Virus genome (UHGV): UHGV-1747927 | Length of the DNA: 10,821 nucleotides | From: a virus | Direction: 5' to 3' (one strand) | Shown: positions 3,650 through 10,765 of the stretch, piece after piece | How the letters are laid out: each line of letters begins with the position of its first letter | Position numbering within the stretch: the first letter of the stretch is position 1 | Made by a program: the position numbers and the translations under genes | Notes under the pieces: generated by a model | The model's input: only the letters and a program-made list of their open reading frames with translations | Told to the model about the DNA's origin: nothing | Databases searched by the model: none

Positions 3650-5026
3650 TCATACGTCCGCCCCTTGTGCATATCGTCTGCCACGCGCAGCAGGTGCATT
3701 TGATGCTGTGCAAATCTGTCTGGCTTCATCCTGGTCACATGCAACAAAGTGTCCGTTGCAGAACCGCTGGTAAACCGTACCAAGTGAGCCAAAACGGTTT
3801 TTCGTCACGATGATTTCAGCAAATGGCGCGGCGCTACTGTTCTCGTCATATACCGCTTCCCGATAGAGCATGATGATTGAGTCTGCGTCCTGTTCAATGC
3901 TTCCTGAATCACGCAAATCTGCGTTTGTCGGGCGTTTGTTTGGTCGCTTCTCAACATCGCGCGAAAGCTGACTCAGGGAGATAACAGGCGTTTTCAGGTC
4001 TTTCGCCATCGCCTTCAGGCTTCCGGAGATGTGAGCAATTGCGAGGTCGTTGCGATCTGCTTTCGGCTTCTCAATCAGGCCAAGATAATCCGCCATGATG
4101 AGTGACAGGTTTGGATTTTCCTGTTTGTGCCGTTCTGCGATTGAGCGTATTTCTTCGACCGATAACCGCGAGGCATCGACTACCCATACATCCAAATCTG
4201 CAAGCTGACTCATGCCGTTAGCAACACGCGCCCAGCCTTCGTCATCCATCGATGCAGGATTTCGCAGTACGCTAACCGACATCCTCCCGGCGTTGGCAAT
4301 GCTTCGCTCTGCAATCTGCAATGCGCTCATTTCCATCGAGAAAATCAATACCCCGCGCCGGACGTCAGAACCAGGAATAACGCGGCTTGCAACGCCTTCG
4401 GCAATCTTCAGAGCCAGTTCGGTTTTCCCCATACCAGGACGAGCAGCGATTATCACCAGGTCTTCCGCGTTCATCCCTCCGGTGATGGCATCAAGTTCTT
4501 CGATTCCGGTCTTCAGGGTATCTGACTCTTCTCCGTTCCTCAGACGCCTGTCAAGCGTGTCAGTGTAGTCGGTGATGATTTCCCCTAACCGTACCGGTTT
4601 AACCTCGTCACGGGGCTTTCTGATGGCTGAAAGACGCTTTACAAGCTCATCCATCGCCTGACTCGATGCGTCGATGGTTCCGCTCTGAATTGGTTCACGC
4701 ATTTCATCCATGATTTCCAGCACCAGACGGCGGTGATAGTTATCCGCGACCATTCCGGCATATCCCTTCAGGTTTGCGGCACTCGGGCAGTTTTTGCTGG
4801 TCATCAGGATTGACGTGAAATGCTCCTCTCCGCACGCCTCGGCAACCATCAGCGCGTCGATTAGGTTTCTGTTTCTCGCCTGCTTGCGGATAACCTCGAA
4901 GGCTTTCCGGTAGAGCGGAATTGAAAACGCTTCCGGCTCCAGCGTTGCCAGAACGTCGCTGGCGGTTGGTGTTAATCCACCAATCAGCAGGCCACCGATA
5001 ACGCTCGCTTCGATATCCTGTCTCAT
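3650..5026 (-). CDS. DnaB-family replicative DNA helicase (458 aa)
   Basis: N-terminal DnaB-like motif (EASVIGGLL); Walker A (AARPGMGKT); and the DnaB C-terminal motifs [38 protein letters not shown]. The start overlaps the O stop (ATGA). Confidence 0.9.
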
Positions 5027-5844
5027 GCAATCCCCCTGTCTGCAAACTTCCCTTCCCGTACTCCAGTTAACGAATCTTCCCTCAGCAGGTAATCAAAATC
5101 AGCTGTCCAGCCCGTGTCGTTGTCTCCGAAGTAAAACGGCTTGGCCTGATGCACAAACGCCCTGACATACGCTCTGAAACCGTCCACGTTTGGCGTTTTC
5201 AGTTGCGGGATGATTTTCTTCAGGCGGCGTTTGCGTTTCTCGTTGACCGCAACAGCGTGTGGCAGTCTGTCACCGACTTCGGTGTTGTAGGCGTTCAGGA
5301 AGGATTCGTAGTCGATTCGTTCTGCCTTGCGACGTTCAGGTTTAACCTGCCCATCACCGCCCCCGTTAGGGGGTAAGGGGGTATTTGTATTTATTGTCTT
5401 TTGTATATTGTCTTTTGTGTTTAGCTGACTTGGCTTATACCCATTAGCCGACTTGGCTAATGTTTTATTAGCTGTTTTAGCTAATGTTAAGCTGTCCTGG
5501 CTAATCCACTGAGAAACCACCTTGTTCACTCCGATTTTCACGCCATCAGCAATGAGGAATTTACGCTCGATAAGCTGGCGCTTGGCAGCGCAAACATGAG
5601 TGTGATGAATACCTGTCATGGCTGCTATCTGCGTGTTTGTGAGTCGATCCATCGGCTTATTGAATCCGTATGTCTTGCGCATGATAGCGAGCATCACCTT
5701 CAACTGCCGGACGGTTAAATCAGCCATCAGCAGACTGTCGGTAATCTCGTTAGCAACGCGCATGAAACCATCTTCGGTATCTGCCACGCGATGCTCCACG
5801 ACCTCCAGTTGAGGCCTGTAATCAGCTAACTTAACGACGCCCAT
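5023..5844 (-). CDS. O: Lambda O-like replication initiator (273 aa)
   Basis: The N-terminal domain ([39 protein letters not shown]) closely resembles lambda O as recalled. The iterons and AT-rich tract lie inside the gene, as in lambda ori. Confidence 0.85.
5381..5505. repeat. Replication origin: four about 17-bp iterons with internal dyad symmetry plus an adjacent AT-rich tract, inside the O gene
   Basis: Iterons TTAGCTGACTTGGCTTA (5421-5437), TTAGCCGACTTGGCTAA (5444-5460), TTAGCTGTTTTAGCTAA (5468-5484) and TTAAGCTGTCCTGGCTAA (5488-5505) are spaced 20-24 bp apart. The AT-rich tract at 5381-5420 contains ATTGTCTTTTGT direct repeats. Confidence 0.6.
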
Positions 5845-6405: not shown

Positions 6406-6451
6406 TCGCTTTGTCAGCGACGTAGGACGAATGTCCATTGTGAAAAGAGCG
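6406..6451 (-). promoter_or_regulatory. nutR-like site: boxA-like CGCTCTTTT and boxB hairpin UCGCU-GACAA-AGCGA
   Basis: Minus strand just after the cro stop. boxA-like at 6451..6443, boxB at 6420..6406 with a 5-bp stem and GACAA pentaloop. The boxA-boxB spacer is 22 nt, longer than in lambda. Confidence 0.5.
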
Positions 6452-6756: not shown

Positions 6757-7473
<717 letters not shown>

Positions 7474-8450: not shown

Positions 8451-8513
8451 AACCATCTGCGGTGATGAATTATCTCTAGCGGTGTTGACATAAATACCAC
8501 TGGCGGTGATACT
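8451..8513 (+). promoter_or_regulatory. pL promoter with OL3-OL2-OL1 operators
   Basis: OL3 is AACCATCTGCGGTGATG (8451-8467), OL2 TATCTCTAGCGGTGTTG (8471-8487), OL1 TACCACTGGCGGTGATA (8495-8511). -35 TTGACA (8485-8490), 17-bp spacer, -10 GATACT (8508-8513). Nearly identical to lambda pL as recalled. Confidence 0.85.
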
Positions 8514-8581
8514 AAACACATCAGCAGGACGCACTACTCACCAGGGCGGTGAATATACAACGATTCAAATATGAATCTACG

Positions 8582-8596
8582 GCGCTGACAAAGCGC
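8582..8596 (+). promoter_or_regulatory. nutL boxB hairpin GCGCU-GACAA-AGCGC
   Basis: A 5-bp GC-rich stem with GACAA pentaloop about 60 nt downstream of the pL start. The same loop occurs in the nutR boxB. It matches the P22 boxB-left sequence as I recall it. No clear boxA was seen upstream. Confidence 0.5.
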
Positions 8597-8608: not shown

Positions 8609-8710
8609 GAACTTTGGGGTGAATGCAGAAGCTAACCTTCTCGGCGGAGGCGCTTTGCAATGATTACGCTACCGGAGTTAGTCGCCCGGCTGTATTCACC
8701 GCCAAAGTTC
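8609..8710 (+). promoter_or_regulatory. Long-range leader stem enclosing about 70 nt upstream of N1 (candidate RNase III processing or translation-control structure)
   Basis: GAACTTTGGGGTGAAT (8609-8624) pairs with ATTCACCGCCAAAGTTC (8694-8710) with one bulge. The 3' arm ends 4 nt before the N1 Shine-Dalgarno (AGGAGG). The analogous stem before N2 carries compensatory changes. Confidence 0.45.
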
Positions 8711-8724
8711 ACCAGGAGGTCTAT

Positions 8725-9108
8725 ATGACACGCAGAACTCAGTTCAAAGGCAATTCACGTTCTCGTCGTCGTGAGCGTTTAAAGGCAAAGGCATTAGCTA
8801 ACGGCGTACTGGCCCGCGAAGAAGCAATAAGTTCAGAAGTATTACACCGCCCTACTCTAAGCAGAGCGCAGATTCAGGCTAAAGGTACTCACGAAACGCC
8901 TGAGCGCATAGAAGACGCTAAGCCAATTAAGTTCATGGCACAGGACGTGATCTGGCAACAGAAAGAATACAGACGCAATCTGGAGAGAGCGGCCATTGTG
9001 TACGCGAATGAGTTTGGACATAAGCAACCAGAAACTGGTGTATGTCTTCCAAATGTAGCTCTTTACGCAGCAGGATACCGGAAATCAAAACAACTGACGG
9101 CGAGATGA
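8725..9108 (+). CDS. N: N-like transcription antiterminator N1 (128 aa from the Shine-Dalgarno-supported ATG)
   Basis: First gene after pL and nutL. AGGAGG lies 6 nt upstream of the ATG at 8725. The N-terminal arginine-rich motif (KGNSRSRRRERLKAKALANG) resembles the P22-type ARM as recalled. The track start at 8623 would lie inside the leader stem and lacks a Shine-Dalgarno. Confidence 0.7.
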   Translation: MTRRTQFKGNSRSRRRERLKAKALANGVLAREEAISSEVLHRPTLSRAQIQAKGTHETPERIEDAKPIKFMAQDVIWQQKEYRRNLERAAIVYANEFGHKQPETGVCLPNVALYAAGYRKSKQLTAR

Positions 9109-9158
9109 CTTGTGTTGGTCGCCAGAAAATGAAATTAGGCAGCAAACCACTTATTTGA
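9105..9158 (+). other. 17-codon mini-ORF or fossil encoding a lambda-N-like C-terminus (MTCVGRQKMKLGSKPLI), -1 frame relative to N1
   Basis: Its ATG overlaps the N1 stop as ATGA. The peptide resembles the lambda N C-terminus (..ITCSGRQKIKGKSIPLI) as recalled. It is not in the N1 reading frame. Confidence 0.3.
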
Positions 9159-9166
9159 GGTGAGAT

Positions 9167-9637
9167 ATGACAAAATCATGGAGCGTACCTTTTCCTGAAT
9201 CAGAAACTGAACATGATGGAATGCCTGTTTTCTGGAGATTCCAAGCGACAGTTGAAGAAGATGGAATCAAAATATTCGCACTTCAATATATAGCTTTTCA
9301 TCAGACAGAGCATTATGCATGGTTGGTTCCTGCGCATTGGATTGTTAATTTTAAACCAGCACCAAATCAGTGGTTACAGGAATGGAAACAAAAGAGAAAT
9401 AGATATGCAATTAAGAAAGTAGCAAAAAATGCAGAAAGATCTTTTGCATTCCCAACGAAGAAACTTGCCATTGAGAGTTTATTGCGCCGGAAGAAATACC
9501 ATTTAATGAGAATCAAACAAGATTTGGCTGTTGTATCAACTCTTGTTGATGGGATGAAGAATATTGATACATCAACACCAGATATTGAATATAACTTTGG
9601 ACACAACCAAGAAACAGAAAATTGGGTATTCTACTAG
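9167..9637 (+). CDS. Hypothetical basic protein (156 aa), AT-rich cassette gene 1
   Basis: GAGGTG lies 5 nt upstream of the ATG. The composition is visibly AT-rich relative to the flanks and the C-terminal half is lysine/arginine-rich. No family recognised. Confidence 0.6.
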   Translation: MTKSWSVPFPESETEHDGMPVFWRFQATVEEDGIKIFALQYIAFHQTEHYAWLVPAHWIVNFKPAPNQWLQEWKQKRNRYAIKKVAKNAERSFAFPTKKLAIESLLRRKKYHLMRIKQDLAVVSTLVDGMKNIDTSTPDIEYNFGHNQETENWVFY

Positions 9638-9683: not shown

Positions 9684-10010
9684 ATGAAAGTTTTAATGGT
9701 TTATGAAAATGTTCCAGAGTCGACTGAAATCTATATTTTTGATGCCAATGAAGATGAAGTTAACGATTTGAAATTGTCTCACGGAAATTACACAAATGCT
9801 AATTGTGATGAAAGTATCGAAAAAGCACTATCACGAGTTCTTGTCAGAATCAGTGATCCAGAACATTGTGATGATGATTGGCTTTCTTATTGTGAATCGG
9901 TAAAAACTGATGCAGGAAAATGGAGTAAAAGTAAAGTTGATAACTCAACCCCAATCATTATGAAAGATAGTGATATTGAAATGGTAATAATAACCGGAAT
10001 GATTATGTAG
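9684..10010 (+). CDS. Hypothetical acidic protein (108 aa), AT-rich cassette gene 2
   Basis: ATG at 9684 is preceded by GGGG. The track start at 9564 would overlap the upstream gene. The protein is Asp/Glu-rich and AT-rich. No family recognised. Confidence 0.5.
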   Translation: MKVLMVYENVPESTEIYIFDANEDEVNDLKLSHGNYTNANCDESIEKALSRVLVRISDPEHCDDDWLSYCESVKTDAGKWSKSKVDNSTPIIMKDSDIEMVIITGMIM

Positions 10011-10026
10011 GCTGCGAATAAGCACT

Positions 10027-10054
10027 GTGTATTCATTCCGACGAGTGAATACAC
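10027..10054. repeat. Perfect 9-bp-arm inverted repeat (GTGTATTCA, 10-nt spacer, TGAATACAC) 17 nt after the cassette stop
   Basis: Read directly. No U-tract follows on either strand, so it is not a canonical intrinsic terminator. Confidence 0.4.
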
Positions 10055-10400
10055 GGAGCAATGTCGCTCGTAACTAAACAGGAGCCGACTTGTTCTGATT
10101 ATTGGAAATCTTCTTTGCCATCCGAAATGCGGGAACTGAGTTTAACCAAACAGGAGGTGCCGTAATGGTGCACTAACGCGGTTAGACCGCAGCCGAAAGG
10201 CAATGCAGCAGTAATGATGCTGCCCCGAGTCGCGTAATGGCGAGCAGGTTTAGCAGACCGATGTGAGGGTAAATAAGGGAACATGCTCCGGAAAGGCAGC
10301 GCGAATGCCAGACGCGCACCGGTTATCAGCGGCTAATAAGCGACAGAGACTCAAGGGCATGAGCGCGCTCACTGCGAGAGTGTGAGTCAAAGAGTAGTTG

Positions 10401-10475
10401 GCTTTGGGGTGACGTGAAGTGCAGCTGCACGACGGCAACCGGAAGATAAGCACCCGGCGCGTCACCGCCAAAGTC
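10401..10475 (+). promoter_or_regulatory. Leader stem upstream of N2, analogous to the N1 leader stem
   Basis: GCTTTGGGGTGACG (10401-10414) pairs with CGTCACCGCCAAAGTC (10460-10475). The arms are the same as in the N1 stem except AAT/ATT is replaced by ACG/CGT, which preserves pairing. It is followed by the Shine-Dalgarno GGAGG and the ATG at 10493. Confidence 0.4.
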
Positions 10476-10492
10476 AATCATCGGAGGTCAAC

Positions 10493-10765
10493 ATGACAGT
10501 AGTCATTACTTATCTGGCTGACGATAACGCCAGAAATCGCCGCAGAGCACGCAGACAGGCTCAACGTGAACAGGCAATGCAAGAGCAGCGACTGGCGCGA
10601 AAAATTGCGCTGAAGCTCTCTGGTTGCGTCAGAGCAGATAAAGCAGCATCACTCGGAAGCCTTCGCTGCAAGAAGGCAGATGAATGCAGTGGAAGTATTT
10701 GCCTGCCAAACGTAGCCATTTACGCGGCAGGCTACCGGAAATCAAAACAACTGACAGCGAGGTAA
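10493..10765 (+). CDS. Second N-like protein N2 (90 aa) with a lambda-like arginine-rich motif and the same 21-aa C-terminal tail as N1
   Basis: GGAGG lies 6 nt upstream. The N-terminal ARM (NARNRRRARRQAQREQ) resembles the lambda N ARM (QTRRRERRAEKQAQ) as recalled. The C-terminal CLPNVAIYAAGYRKSKQLTAR is shared with N1. Confidence 0.6.
   Translation: MTVVITYLADDNARNRRRARRQAQREQAMQEQRLARKIALKLSGCVRADKAASLGSLRCKKADECSGSICLPNVAIYAAGYRKSKQLTAR

What the first reader, a model, noticed from the sequence alone, without database searches (positions are those of the whole stretch)
9043..9158. Shared 3' tail of N1 and N2 under purifying selection, with a lambda-N-like C-terminus left in the -1 frame after N1
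The last 22 codons of N1 (9043-9108) and N2 (10700-10765) align without gaps. Of 10 nucleotide differences, 8 are synonymous third-position changes, 1 is Leu to Ile, and 1 changes one stop codon to another (TGA to TAA). That pattern indicates selection on the annotated frame in both copies. Yet right at the N1 stop, in the -1 frame, an ATG-initiated 17-codon ORF encodes MTCVGRQKMKLGSKPLI, which resembles the RNAP-binding C-terminus of lambda N as I recall it. A run CAAAAC at 9089-9094 lies where a -1 slip would join the frames. The options are a fossil of a displaced N 3' end, a separately translated micro-protein, or a frameshift product.
Basis: partly seen in the sequence, partly recalled or inferred. 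Interest (0 to 1): 0.65.

Follow-up and report, generated by a model that had tools for sequence, protein, structure and literature searches.

The report
Leftover N-gene end at a phage mosaic joint
The short reading frame after the first antiterminator gene is an untranslated leftover of the end of a phage-21-type N gene, left at a recombination joint that many E. coli prophages share; this is an ordinary product of phage mosaicism.

Summary
The last 22 codons of N1 (9043-9108) and N2 (10700-10765) align without gaps. They differ at 10 bases: 8 synonymous, one Leu/Ile, one TGA/TAA (pS 0.48, pN 0.02, P about 5e-5). This tail is the phage P22 gp24-type C-terminus, and it is the functional end of both proteins.

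The 17-codon ORF at 9105-9158 is real and matches phage 21 N (15/17) and lambda N (11/17). At DNA level, 9106-9169 is 62/64 identical to the 3' end of phage 21 N plus the ribosome-binding site of the next gene. Homology starts exactly at the N1 stop codon. The ORF is therefore a relic of a displaced N 3' end.

Its ATG comes from a synonymous AGG/AGA wobble in N1; about 61% of related loci have GTG, the Val codon of 21 N. It has no Shine-Dalgarno sequence. The CAAAAC run (9086-9091, not 9089-9094) is broken as often in loci with the relic as in loci without it. No RNA structure follows it, and many N1 genes lack the relic.

Relics and intact 21-type tails share the same variants and the same downstream genes, so the relic probably serves as a homology patch for module exchange. 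The micro-protein and frameshift readings are not supported. Interest is low.

The parts
8485..8513 (+). PL-like sigma-70 promoter (TTGACA-17-GATACT) that drives the N1..N2 operon
   Evidence: 10 of 12 consensus matches. No comparable site lies in the N2 leader.
8577..8596 (+). nutL boxB-like hairpin (GCGCTGACAAAGCGC) in the N1 leader
   Evidence: 18/19 match to the cro-cII gap (6407-6425, minus strand), which is nutR. 933W annotates nutL at the equivalent place.
8725..9108 (+). N1, a 127-aa antiterminator N of the HK97 / H-19B / 933W type
   Evidence: 97-98% nucleotide identity to annotated N genes. Pfam N_peptide PF25694, 58.5 bits, residues 2-127 reach the end of the profile. Shine-Dalgarno pairing -11 kcal/mol.
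9043..9108 (+). P22 gp24-type C-terminal tail of N1 (CLPNVALYAAGYRKSKQLTAR*), shared with N2
   Evidence: pS 0.48, pN 0.022. P22 gp24 ends LLPGVALYAAGHRKSKQITAR*. Enterobacter homologues keep the peptide with pS about 0.75.
9086..9091 (+). CAAAAC run, the proposed slip site; not a functional element
   Evidence: the run is broken to CCAAAC in 26 of 98 relic-bearing tails and 8 of 36 relic-less tails. P22 and the Enterobacter homologues lack it.
9105..9108 (+). Mosaic joint: N1 stop codon TGA fused to the 21-type sequence; the ATG/TGA overlap arises here
   Evidence: homology to phage 21 N starts at 9106; all 98 relic-bearing loci have the same joint, AGR-TGA|CTTGTGTTGG. The first codon is GTG in 60, ATG in 37 and ATA in 1.
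9106..9158 (+). Relic of the last 17 codons of a phage-21-type N gene (ORF 9105-9158, MTCVGRQKMKLGSKPLI*), judged non-coding
   Evidence: 62/64 nucleotide identity to the phage 21 N 3' end over 9106-9169. for peptide identity; no Shine-Dalgarno sequence (-1.8 kcal/mol); same variant pool and same downstream genes as intact tails.
9156..9169 (+). TGAGGTGAGATATG: relic stop codon overlapping the Shine-Dalgarno sequence and start codon of the next gene; the part of the relic that still works
   Evidence: SD pairing -6.9 kcal/mol; the last 21-27 nt plus the SD recur without the rest of the relic behind other small genes.
9167..9637 (+). HK97 gp45-like gene (156 aa, unknown function), one of about 11 alternative genes found after the relic
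   Evidence: HK97 gp45, 933W L0079; phrog_1636..
9684..10010 (+). 108-aa gene of unknown function between the two N modules
   Evidence: phrog_4658, E=3.6e-37.
10022..10492 (+). Leader of N2, homologous to the region upstream of N in HK620, mEp213 and CUS-3; no promoter-like site
10493..10765 (+). N2, a 90-aa antiterminator N of the HK620 / HK140 / JEP4 / mEp213_047 type
   Evidence: 100% identical to JEP4, 97.8% to HK140 and HK630. PF25694, 58.4 bits, residues 11-90 reach the end of the profile.
10700..10765 (+). P22 gp24-type tail of N2 (CLPNVAIYAAGYRKSKQLTAR*), TAA stop, no relic downstream

Best explanation
Window 9106-9158 is a relic of the 3' end of a phage-21-type N gene.

Origin (inferred). 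One ancestral illegitimate recombination event joined an N allele with the P22 gp24-type C-terminus to a 21-type N gene 17 codons before its end. The likely crossover point is the microhomology GTGA.

What works now (shown by comparison). The upstream N keeps its own tail and stop codon, and these are its functional end. The 21-type remnant is no longer part of N and is most likely not translated. Its last 15-25 nt remain functional as the Shine-Dalgarno and start region of whatever gene follows.

Current role (inferred from population data). The remnant stays almost identical to intact 21-type tails in other lambdoid phages. It therefore acts as a short homology patch. Phage and host recombinases can cross over in it, which swaps the genes downstream of N between phages that carry different N alleles.

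The shared tail. The 66-nt tail common to N1 and N2 is the conserved functional C-terminus of this N class, and it too can serve as a homology patch.
For: Identity of the relic. Window 9106-9169 is 62/64 identical to the phage 21 N 3' end plus the following SD and start, and identity begins exactly at the N1 stop codon.

Single origin. All 98 relic-bearing tails share the joint AGR-TGA|CTTGTGTTGG, although they sit on at least 4 different N bodies.

The start codon. The relic's first codon is GTG, the Val of 21 N 'GVTCVG', in about 61% of loci. It is ATG only where N1's last Arg codon is AGA.

Dispensability. 36 tails of the same type have no relic and show at least 6 other downstream contexts. 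P22 and the Enterobacter homologues also lack it.

Which end is functional. Pfam N_peptide aligns N1 and N2 to its last column. The tail has pN/pS = 0.045. Purified 127-aa H-19B N antiterminates, and deleting residues 101-127 abolishes action at distal terminators (PMC3526286).

Use as a homology patch.
- In an exact-word scan of IMG/VR there were 80 intact tails and 37 relics with the same sequence variants: M/I, and the PLI, LLYEG, PLYEG and SIPAYYD endings.
- 10 of the 11 downstream gene types found after relics also follow intact tails.
- All four combinations of AGG/AGA with downstream gene type occur for five gene types.

Other relics. Shorter relics with two further joints exist. One SIPAYYD-type relic carries a 1-nt insertion.

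Prevalence. The composite tail plus relic occurs in 641 of 5426 complete E. coli genomes.

Mechanism in the literature. Red/Rad52-type recombinases recombine short and diverged phage sequences (PMC3945230; PMC2327257).
Against: The relic ORF is intact in every 54-nt copy of the PLI class that I saw. It also has 0 segregating sites in 50 nt among 17 haplotypes of N1 + relic + gp45. For comparison, 18 of 157 third positions vary in gp45 and 4 of 106 in the N1 body. This is lower than a free-running pseudogene would show.

I attribute the low diversity to two things: the joint is young, and intact 21-type tails themselves fall into discrete allele classes that are almost invariant. Constraint at the nucleotide level is not excluded.

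The ATGA or GTGA stop-start overlap is the classical layout for termination-reinitiation, and both variants are usable start codons.

No expression data were available. The crossover role is inferred from population patterns and was not observed directly.
Confidence: 0.82

Rival explanations
1. The relic ORF is translated as a 17-aa micro-protein by termination-reinitiation at the ATGA/GTGA overlap with N1. The peptide either acts on RNA polymerase like the lambda/21 N C-terminus, or the ORF simply relays ribosomes to the Shine-Dalgarno sequence of the next gene.
For: The N1 stop codon and the relic start codon overlap by 4 nt, and 97 of 98 copies have ATG or GTG there. The ORF is open in all PLI-class copies, with 0 of 50 segregating sites. 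Its stop codon sits inside the SD of the next gene, exactly as in intact 21-type N genes.
Against: There is no Shine-Dalgarno sequence (-1.8 kcal/mol against -6 to -11 for the real genes). ATG/GTG is fully explained by the AGA/AGG wobble of N1's Arg codon, and one copy has ATA. About a quarter of N genes with the same tail lack the relic. Truncated relics only 21-27 nt long serve the same downstream genes. A related relic is frameshifted. The next gene has its own strong SD. PMC3526286, citing Franklin 1992, reports that the last 14 residues of lambda N are dispensable.
Confidence: 0.08
2. A programmed -1 ribosomal frameshift at the CAAAAC run produces an N1 variant that ends in the 21-type RNA-polymerase-binding tail.
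For: The -1 frame is open from 9024 to 9158, so a slip on A-AAA at 9087-9090 would join the frames.
Against: There is no X XXY YYZ heptamer. The downstream RNA folds no better than shuffled sequence (z=+0.86). The A-run is broken by a synonymous TCA to TCC change in 26 of 98 relic-bearing tails and 8 of 36 relic-less tails, which is the same rate. All 9 N1/N2 differences are non-synonymous in the -1 frame. The 127-aa protein is sufficient in vitro, and deleting residues 121-127 causes no defect.
Confidence: 0.02
3. The 50-nt segment is kept invariant because it carries a cis-acting DNA or RNA signal, for example an RNA processing site or a dedicated recombination site. It would then be more than a passive relic.
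For: 0 of 50 segregating sites, against about 10% at third positions of the flanking genes. The same sequence is nearly invariant in intact N genes as well, including synonymous positions. The segment lies at the edge of a slot with variable gene content.
Against: No Rfam match and no significant fold. Other N tail classes (lambda, SIPAYYD, LPYGAY, P22-type) occupy the same position with unrelated nucleotide sequences. Low within-class diversity is the usual state of lambdoid mosaic segments. Against the N1 body baseline the deficit is not significant (roughly P=0.07, from the counts).
Confidence: 0.06

Closest known systems
Phage 21 N protein C-terminus, homologous to lambda N residues 91-107 (RNA-polymerase-contacting CTD; lambda N chain in PDB 6GOV)
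   Same: The relic is 62/64 nt and 15/17 aa identical to the end of 21 N and 11/17 aa identical to lambda N. It has the same stop codon overlapping the same Shine-Dalgarno sequence.
   Different: It is cut off from any N body by the N1 stop codon, lies in another frame, and has no ribosome-binding site of its own. It is a gene fragment and does not form part of a protein.
P22 gp24 / H-19B N C-terminal domain (Pfam N_peptide PF25694)
   Same: Both N1 and N2 end in this tail. 17 of 21 residues match P22 gp24, and both proteins match the Pfam profile to its last column.
   Different: The tail sits on two unrelated N bodies in one operon. In N1 it is followed by the 21-type relic, which P22 and N2 lack.
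Mosaic joints and short conserved boundary (linker) sequences of lambdoid phages (modular theory; HK97/HK022 and HK620 comparative genomics; relaxed homologous recombination by Red/Rad52-like recombinases)
   Same: A short block of near-identity sits at a module border in otherwise different genomes. Different genes lie on either side, and there is four-gamete evidence of exchange across it (PMC3029335; PMC3945230).
   Different: Here the linker is recognisably a gene fragment whose origin and joint can be read to the base. The one boundary sequence annotated near N in a record I checked (bsq5 of CUS-3) lies upstream of N, not at its 3' end.
Translationally coupled ATGA overlaps and programmed -1 frameshift sites (for example dnaX)
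   Same: There is a 4-nt stop/start overlap, and a short A-run lies upstream of an open -1 frame.
   Different: There is no SD, no slippery heptamer, no stimulatory structure and no conservation of the run. The start codon identity follows a wobble base.

Membership tests
Lambdoid antiterminator N (Pfam N_peptide PF25694), tested for N1 and N2 | Match to the family profile above the curated cut-off, covering the C-terminal tail | tested here: met
   N1 scores 58.5 bits and N2 58.4 bits (cut-off 27.9). Both reach profile column 100 of 100.
Lambdoid antiterminator N (Pfam N_peptide PF25694), tested for N1 and N2 | First gene downstream of PL, with a nut site (boxB hairpin) in its leader and a matching nutR | tested here: met
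   Met for N1: PL-like site at 8485-8513, and a boxB-like hairpin at 8577-8596 that matches 6407-6425 on the minus strand. Not met for N2: no matching nutR was found in the window.
Lambdoid antiterminator N (Pfam N_peptide PF25694), tested for N1 and N2 | Antitermination activity of the annotated protein | not testable with these tools
   Published for the near-identical 127-aa H-19B N (PMC3526286). Not tested for N2.
Functional lambda/21-type N C-terminal segment | Sequence similarity to the C-terminus of 21 N or lambda N | tested here: met
   15/17 and 11/17 residues; 62/64 nt.
Functional lambda/21-type N C-terminal segment | In frame with, and continuous with, an N body (arginine-rich motif plus NusA-binding region) | tested here: not met
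   The segment is separated from N1 by TGA at 9106-9108 and lies in the -1 frame.
Programmed -1 ribosomal frameshift site | Slippery heptamer X XXY YYZ in the zero frame | tested here: not met
   The sequence reads A TCA AAA C, which allows only single-tRNA slippage on A-AAA.
Programmed -1 ribosomal frameshift site | Stimulatory structure downstream, or an SD upstream | tested here: not met
   MFE -15.3 kcal/mol against a shuffle mean of -18.0, z=+0.86.
Programmed -1 ribosomal frameshift site | Slip site conserved wherever the second frame is present | tested here: not met
   the run is broken in 27% of relic-bearing tails and 22-28% of relic-less tails.
Independently translated small ORF (translational coupling) | Start codon with a ribosome-binding site, or a stop/start overlap | tested here: inconclusive
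   The ATGA/GTGA overlap is present in 97 of 98 copies, but there is no SD, and the start codon identity is set by N1's Arg wobble base.
Independently translated small ORF (translational coupling) | Purifying selection in its own frame | tested here: inconclusive
   Too few variants to test: M/I, one L to S and one synonymous GGC to GGT. One frameshifted relic of a sister class exists.
Independently translated small ORF (translational coupling) | Evidence of translation | not testable with these tools
   No ribosome profiling or proteomics data were accessible.
Mosaic-joint relic / boundary (linker) sequence of lambdoid phages | Near-identical short block shared by genomes whose flanks differ | tested here: met
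   at least 4 N bodies lie upstream and 11 gene types downstream. 10 of the 11 are shared with intact tails.
Mosaic-joint relic / boundary (linker) sequence of lambdoid phages | Evidence of exchange across the block | tested here: met
   all four combinations of the AGG/AGA allele with downstream gene occur for five gene types.
Mosaic-joint relic / boundary (linker) sequence of lambdoid phages | Direct demonstration of crossovers within the block | not testable with these tools
   This needs phage crosses with mapped junctions.

The most novel reading that the evidence does not exclude
The relic is not silent. Ribosomes that terminate at the N1 stop codon reinitiate at the overlapping ATG or GTG and translate the 17 codons. 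They then terminate inside the SD of the next gene. This would preserve the N-to-downstream-gene translational coupling that intact 21-type N genes have, and it could also release a free peptide equivalent to the extreme C-terminus of lambda/21 N that might contact RNA polymerase. The unbroken ORF and the absence of any polymorphism in the relic would then reflect selection.
Probability: 0.05. Interest if true: 0.55.

Novelty: new member of a known kind. Interest (0 to 1): 0.2.

Why it matters
This is a cleanly resolved mosaic joint in some of the best-studied temperate phages (HK97, H-19B, 933W and other Stx phages). It is present in about 12% of complete E. coli genomes.

It shows base by base how a new antiterminator allele was grafted in front of the last 17 codons of an older one. 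It also suggests that the leftover still works as a ribosome-binding region and as a homology patch for shuffling the genes behind N.

It warns annotators and small-ORF hunters that an ATG-initiated, N-like mini-ORF overlapping a stop codon can be pure history.

The finding does not change how N antitermination is understood. As a side point, the P22/H-19B-type C-terminal tail is under strong purifying selection but has no sequence match to any solved structure.

Tried and rejected
1. The 'bsq5 boundary sequence' annotated near N in phage CUS-3 might have been this element. It is not: bsq5 lies between cI and N, upstream of the gene. It corresponds instead to the N2 leader region.

2. PGAP's second 'antitermination protein, missing N-terminus' feature in E. 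coli strain 81 might have been an annotated relic. It is only the tail of a frameshifted N1.

3. An Rfam scan and RNA folding of the region found nothing.

4. A polymorphism test for constraint on the relic gave 0 of 50 segregating sites. It is confounded, because the neighbouring N1 tail is hypervariable from mixing of diverged alleles, and intact tails fall into near-invariant allele classes. I do not read it as evidence of selection.

5. Literature. Juhala et al. 2000 (HK97/HK022) and Franklin 1992 could not be read. Four of the seven full-text searches were aimed at finding a description of this relic or of the tandem N layout, and none turned one up. I therefore cannot say whether it has been described in print.

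6. The genome-contig scan returned only 6 loci. These still supplied the two diverged Enterobacter-type homologues, which lack the relic.

Full report
CONTEXT

The window is the early region of a lambdoid prophage, read in the opposite direction to the lambda map. It contains, in order:
- a LexA-family cI-like repressor at 6760-7473 on the + strand;
- a PL-like promoter at 8485-8513;
- N1 at 8725-9108;
- an HK97 gp45-like gene at 9167-9637;
- a 108-aa gene at 9684-10010;
- a 470-nt leader, then a second N gene, N2, at 10493-10765.

N1 is 97-98% identical in DNA to the annotated N genes of HK97, H-19B, 933W and many Stx phages. N2 is identical or nearly identical to the N of JEP4, HK140, HK630 and mEp213_047. 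Both match Pfam N_peptide (PF25694) to the last profile column.

CHECKING THE OBSERVATION

The two 22-codon tails align without gaps. Of the 10 differences, 8 are synonymous, one is Leu/Ile and one is TGA/TAA. Similarity begins abruptly at the Cys codon and ends at the stop.

Nei-Gojobori counts give pS=0.48 and pN=0.022, with Fisher P=5e-5. Random placement of nine substitutions gives at least 8 synonymous changes with probability 5e-5. In the -1 frame all nine differences change the amino acid.

The same peptide ends P22 gp24 (LLPGVALYAAGHRKSKQITAR*, 45/66 nt identical). It also ends two Enterobacter-type homologues with pS of about 0.75. The annotated frame is therefore under strong purifying selection, and the tail is the P22 gp24-type C-terminus.

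The ORF 9105-9158 (MTCVGRQKMKLGSKPLI*) exists, and its ATG overlaps the N1 stop codon. It is 15/17 identical to the end of phage 21 N and 11/17 to the end of lambda N. The 21 N tail matches the lambda N chain of the solved antitermination complex (6gov_N residues 74-110). The CAAAAC run is at 9086-9091, three bases upstream of the coordinates given.

WHAT THE ORF IS

At DNA level, 9106-9169 is 62/64 identical to the 3' end of phage 21 N together with the TGAGGTGAnATATG that follows it. That sequence is the N stop codon overlapping the Shine-Dalgarno sequence and start codon of the next gene. Identity starts exactly at the N1 stop codon; upstream of it the two sequences are unrelated.

In HK97 and 933W the last Arg codon of N is AGG, so the ORF begins with GTG. 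GTG is the Val codon of 21 N's 'GVTCVG'. Among the 98 relic-bearing copies collected, 60 have GTG, 37 ATG and 1 ATA. The ATG in this window is thus a by-product of a synonymous AGG to AGA change in N1.

All 98 copies share the same joint (AGR-TGA|CTTGTGTTGG), although the tail plus relic sits on at least four different N bodies. This points to a single ancestral illegitimate event, probably at the microhomology GTGA.

TESTS OF THE CODING ALTERNATIVES

Ribosome-binding site. The relic start has no Shine-Dalgarno pairing (-1.8 kcal/mol). The values for N1, gp45, the 108-aa gene and N2 range from -6 to -11 kcal/mol.

Dispensability. 36 tails of the same type have no relic and are followed by at least six other sequences. 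N2, P22 and the Enterobacter homologues also lack it.

Slip site. The A-run is broken by a synonymous TCA to TCC change in 26 of 98 relic-bearing tails and in 8 of 36 relic-less tails, so it is not preferentially kept. There is no X XXY YYZ heptamer. The 106 nt around and after the run fold no better than shuffled sequence (z=+0.86). Rfam finds nothing.

Published biochemistry. Work on H-19B N used the purified 127-aa protein. It showed that deleting residues 101-127 abolishes action at distal terminators, whereas deleting 121-127 causes no defect. The same paper cites Franklin 1992 for the dispensability of the last 14 residues of lambda N (PMC3526286).

Decay. A sister relic of the SIPAYYD class in E. 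coli strain 81 carries a 1-nt insertion that breaks its frame.

HOW THE RELIC IS USED

An exact-word scan of IMG/VR for the first 17 nt of the relic returned 80 copies that are the true end of an N gene and 37 relics. The two groups carry the same sequence variants: M/I, and the PLI, LLYEG, PLYEG and SIPAYYD endings.

Across all loci held, relics are followed by 11 kinds of downstream gene, and 10 of these also follow intact tails. All four combinations of the AGG/AGA allele with downstream gene type occur for five gene types. These counts include some contigs sampled twice.

Shorter relics, consisting of the last 21-27 nt plus the SD, sit behind two other small genes with two further joints (loci L004, L005, L295, L296). 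The constant element is therefore the last 15-25 nt plus the SD, which is the translation-initiation region of the next gene. How much more of the old N gene is retained depends on where each joint fell.

Phage Rad52-type recombinases are known to recombine short and diverged phage sequences (PMC3945230; PMC2327257). The relic is thus a plausible crossover patch. This step is inferred from population patterns and was not observed.

The composite tail plus relic occurs in 641 of 5426 complete E. coli genomes.

AN UNRESOLVED POINT

Among 17 haplotypes of N1 + relic + gp45, the relic has no segregating site in 50 nt. The adjacent N1 tail has 10 in 63. The N1 body has 4 in 106 third positions, and gp45 has 18 in 157.

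Against the gp45 baseline this is a significant deficit. Against the N1 body baseline it is not. Intact 21-type tails fall into discrete allele classes that are each almost invariant, which is typical of lambdoid mosaic segments. The N1 tail is inflated by mixing of diverged alleles. I read the low diversity as youth plus homogenisation. A nucleotide-level constraint, or translation of the relic as a relay ORF, is not excluded; I give these together roughly 0.1 to 0.15.

COMPARISON WITH KNOWN KINDS, AND VERDICT

N1 and N2 are ordinary members of the N family. The relic resembles the lambda/21 N C-terminus but fails the defining requirement of being part of an N protein. It also fails the defining features of a programmed frameshift site. 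It fits the known class of mosaic-joint remnants and boundary sequences of lambdoid phages.

No record I examined annotates the relic, and I found no paper describing it. The HK97 genome paper and Franklin 1992 could not be read.

The finding is real and well observed. The biology is ordinary, and interest is low.

Noticed in passing
window 8725-9108 and 10493-10765; L005 (mEp213) 453-785 and 1938-2210: Two different N antiterminator genes lie in tandem in one PL operon. N1's leader boxB-like hairpin (8577-8596) matches the nutR position in the cro-cII gap (6407-6425, minus strand). N2's leader has no such partner and no promoter-like site, so N2 looks like a passenger. Phage mEp213 has the same two-N layout with a different first N.
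   Followed up: partly
L295 about 620-660; L296 about 495-531; L004 5130-5165; L005 2470-2503: Truncated relics, consisting of the last 21-27 nt of the 21-type N gene plus its SD (GCAGCAAACCACTTATTTGAGGTGAnATATG), recur behind other small early-left genes with two further distinct joints. Among the loci held there are 22 'linker only' copies and 201 full copies.
   Followed up: partly
L004 (E. coli strain 81) 4520-5165: N1 carries a 2-nt insertion, so PGAP calls it as two 'antitermination protein' features. Downstream, a small gene (MLKKVKRRLYKEG...) sits between a frameshifted SIPAYYD-type relic and a truncated PLI-type relic.
   Followed up: partly
window 9043-9108 versus 10700-10765: The two tails form a 66-nt direct repeat at 85% identity, with a 23-nt perfect core (TACCGGAAATCAAAACAACTGAC), 1657 nt apart in the same operon. 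Recombination between them would delete gp45, the 108-aa gene and the N2 body, and leave a hybrid N.
   Followed up: no
window 8725-9105 (N1 protein): The H-19B/HK97/P22-type N has no sequence match to any solved structure. Its C-terminal tail is strongly conserved and unrelated in sequence to the lambda N tail seen in PDB 6GOV, so how it contacts RNA polymerase cannot be read from any solved structure.
   Followed up: no
window 10026-10058: An inverted repeat (GTGTATTCA...TGAATACAC) lies just after the 108-aa gene, at the start of the block shared with HK97 and HK620. In HK97 a putative terminator is annotated a little downstream of gp45. It may be an early-left terminator that N-modified polymerase reads through.
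   Followed up: no
window 8623-9108: The mechanical ORF list starts N1 at ATG 8623 (161 aa). The annotated and SD-supported start is ATG 8725 (127 aa). The upstream extension overlaps the nutL leader.
   Followed up: yes
L214-L293: N genes related to phage 21 N carry at least three unrelated C-terminal endings...CVGRQK[MI]KLGSKPLI...CSGRQKQRGKSIPAYYD and ...HAVQKIKLYSKLPYGAY. Each class is almost invariant at nucleotide level, so the N 3' end is itself a swappable module.
   Followed up: no
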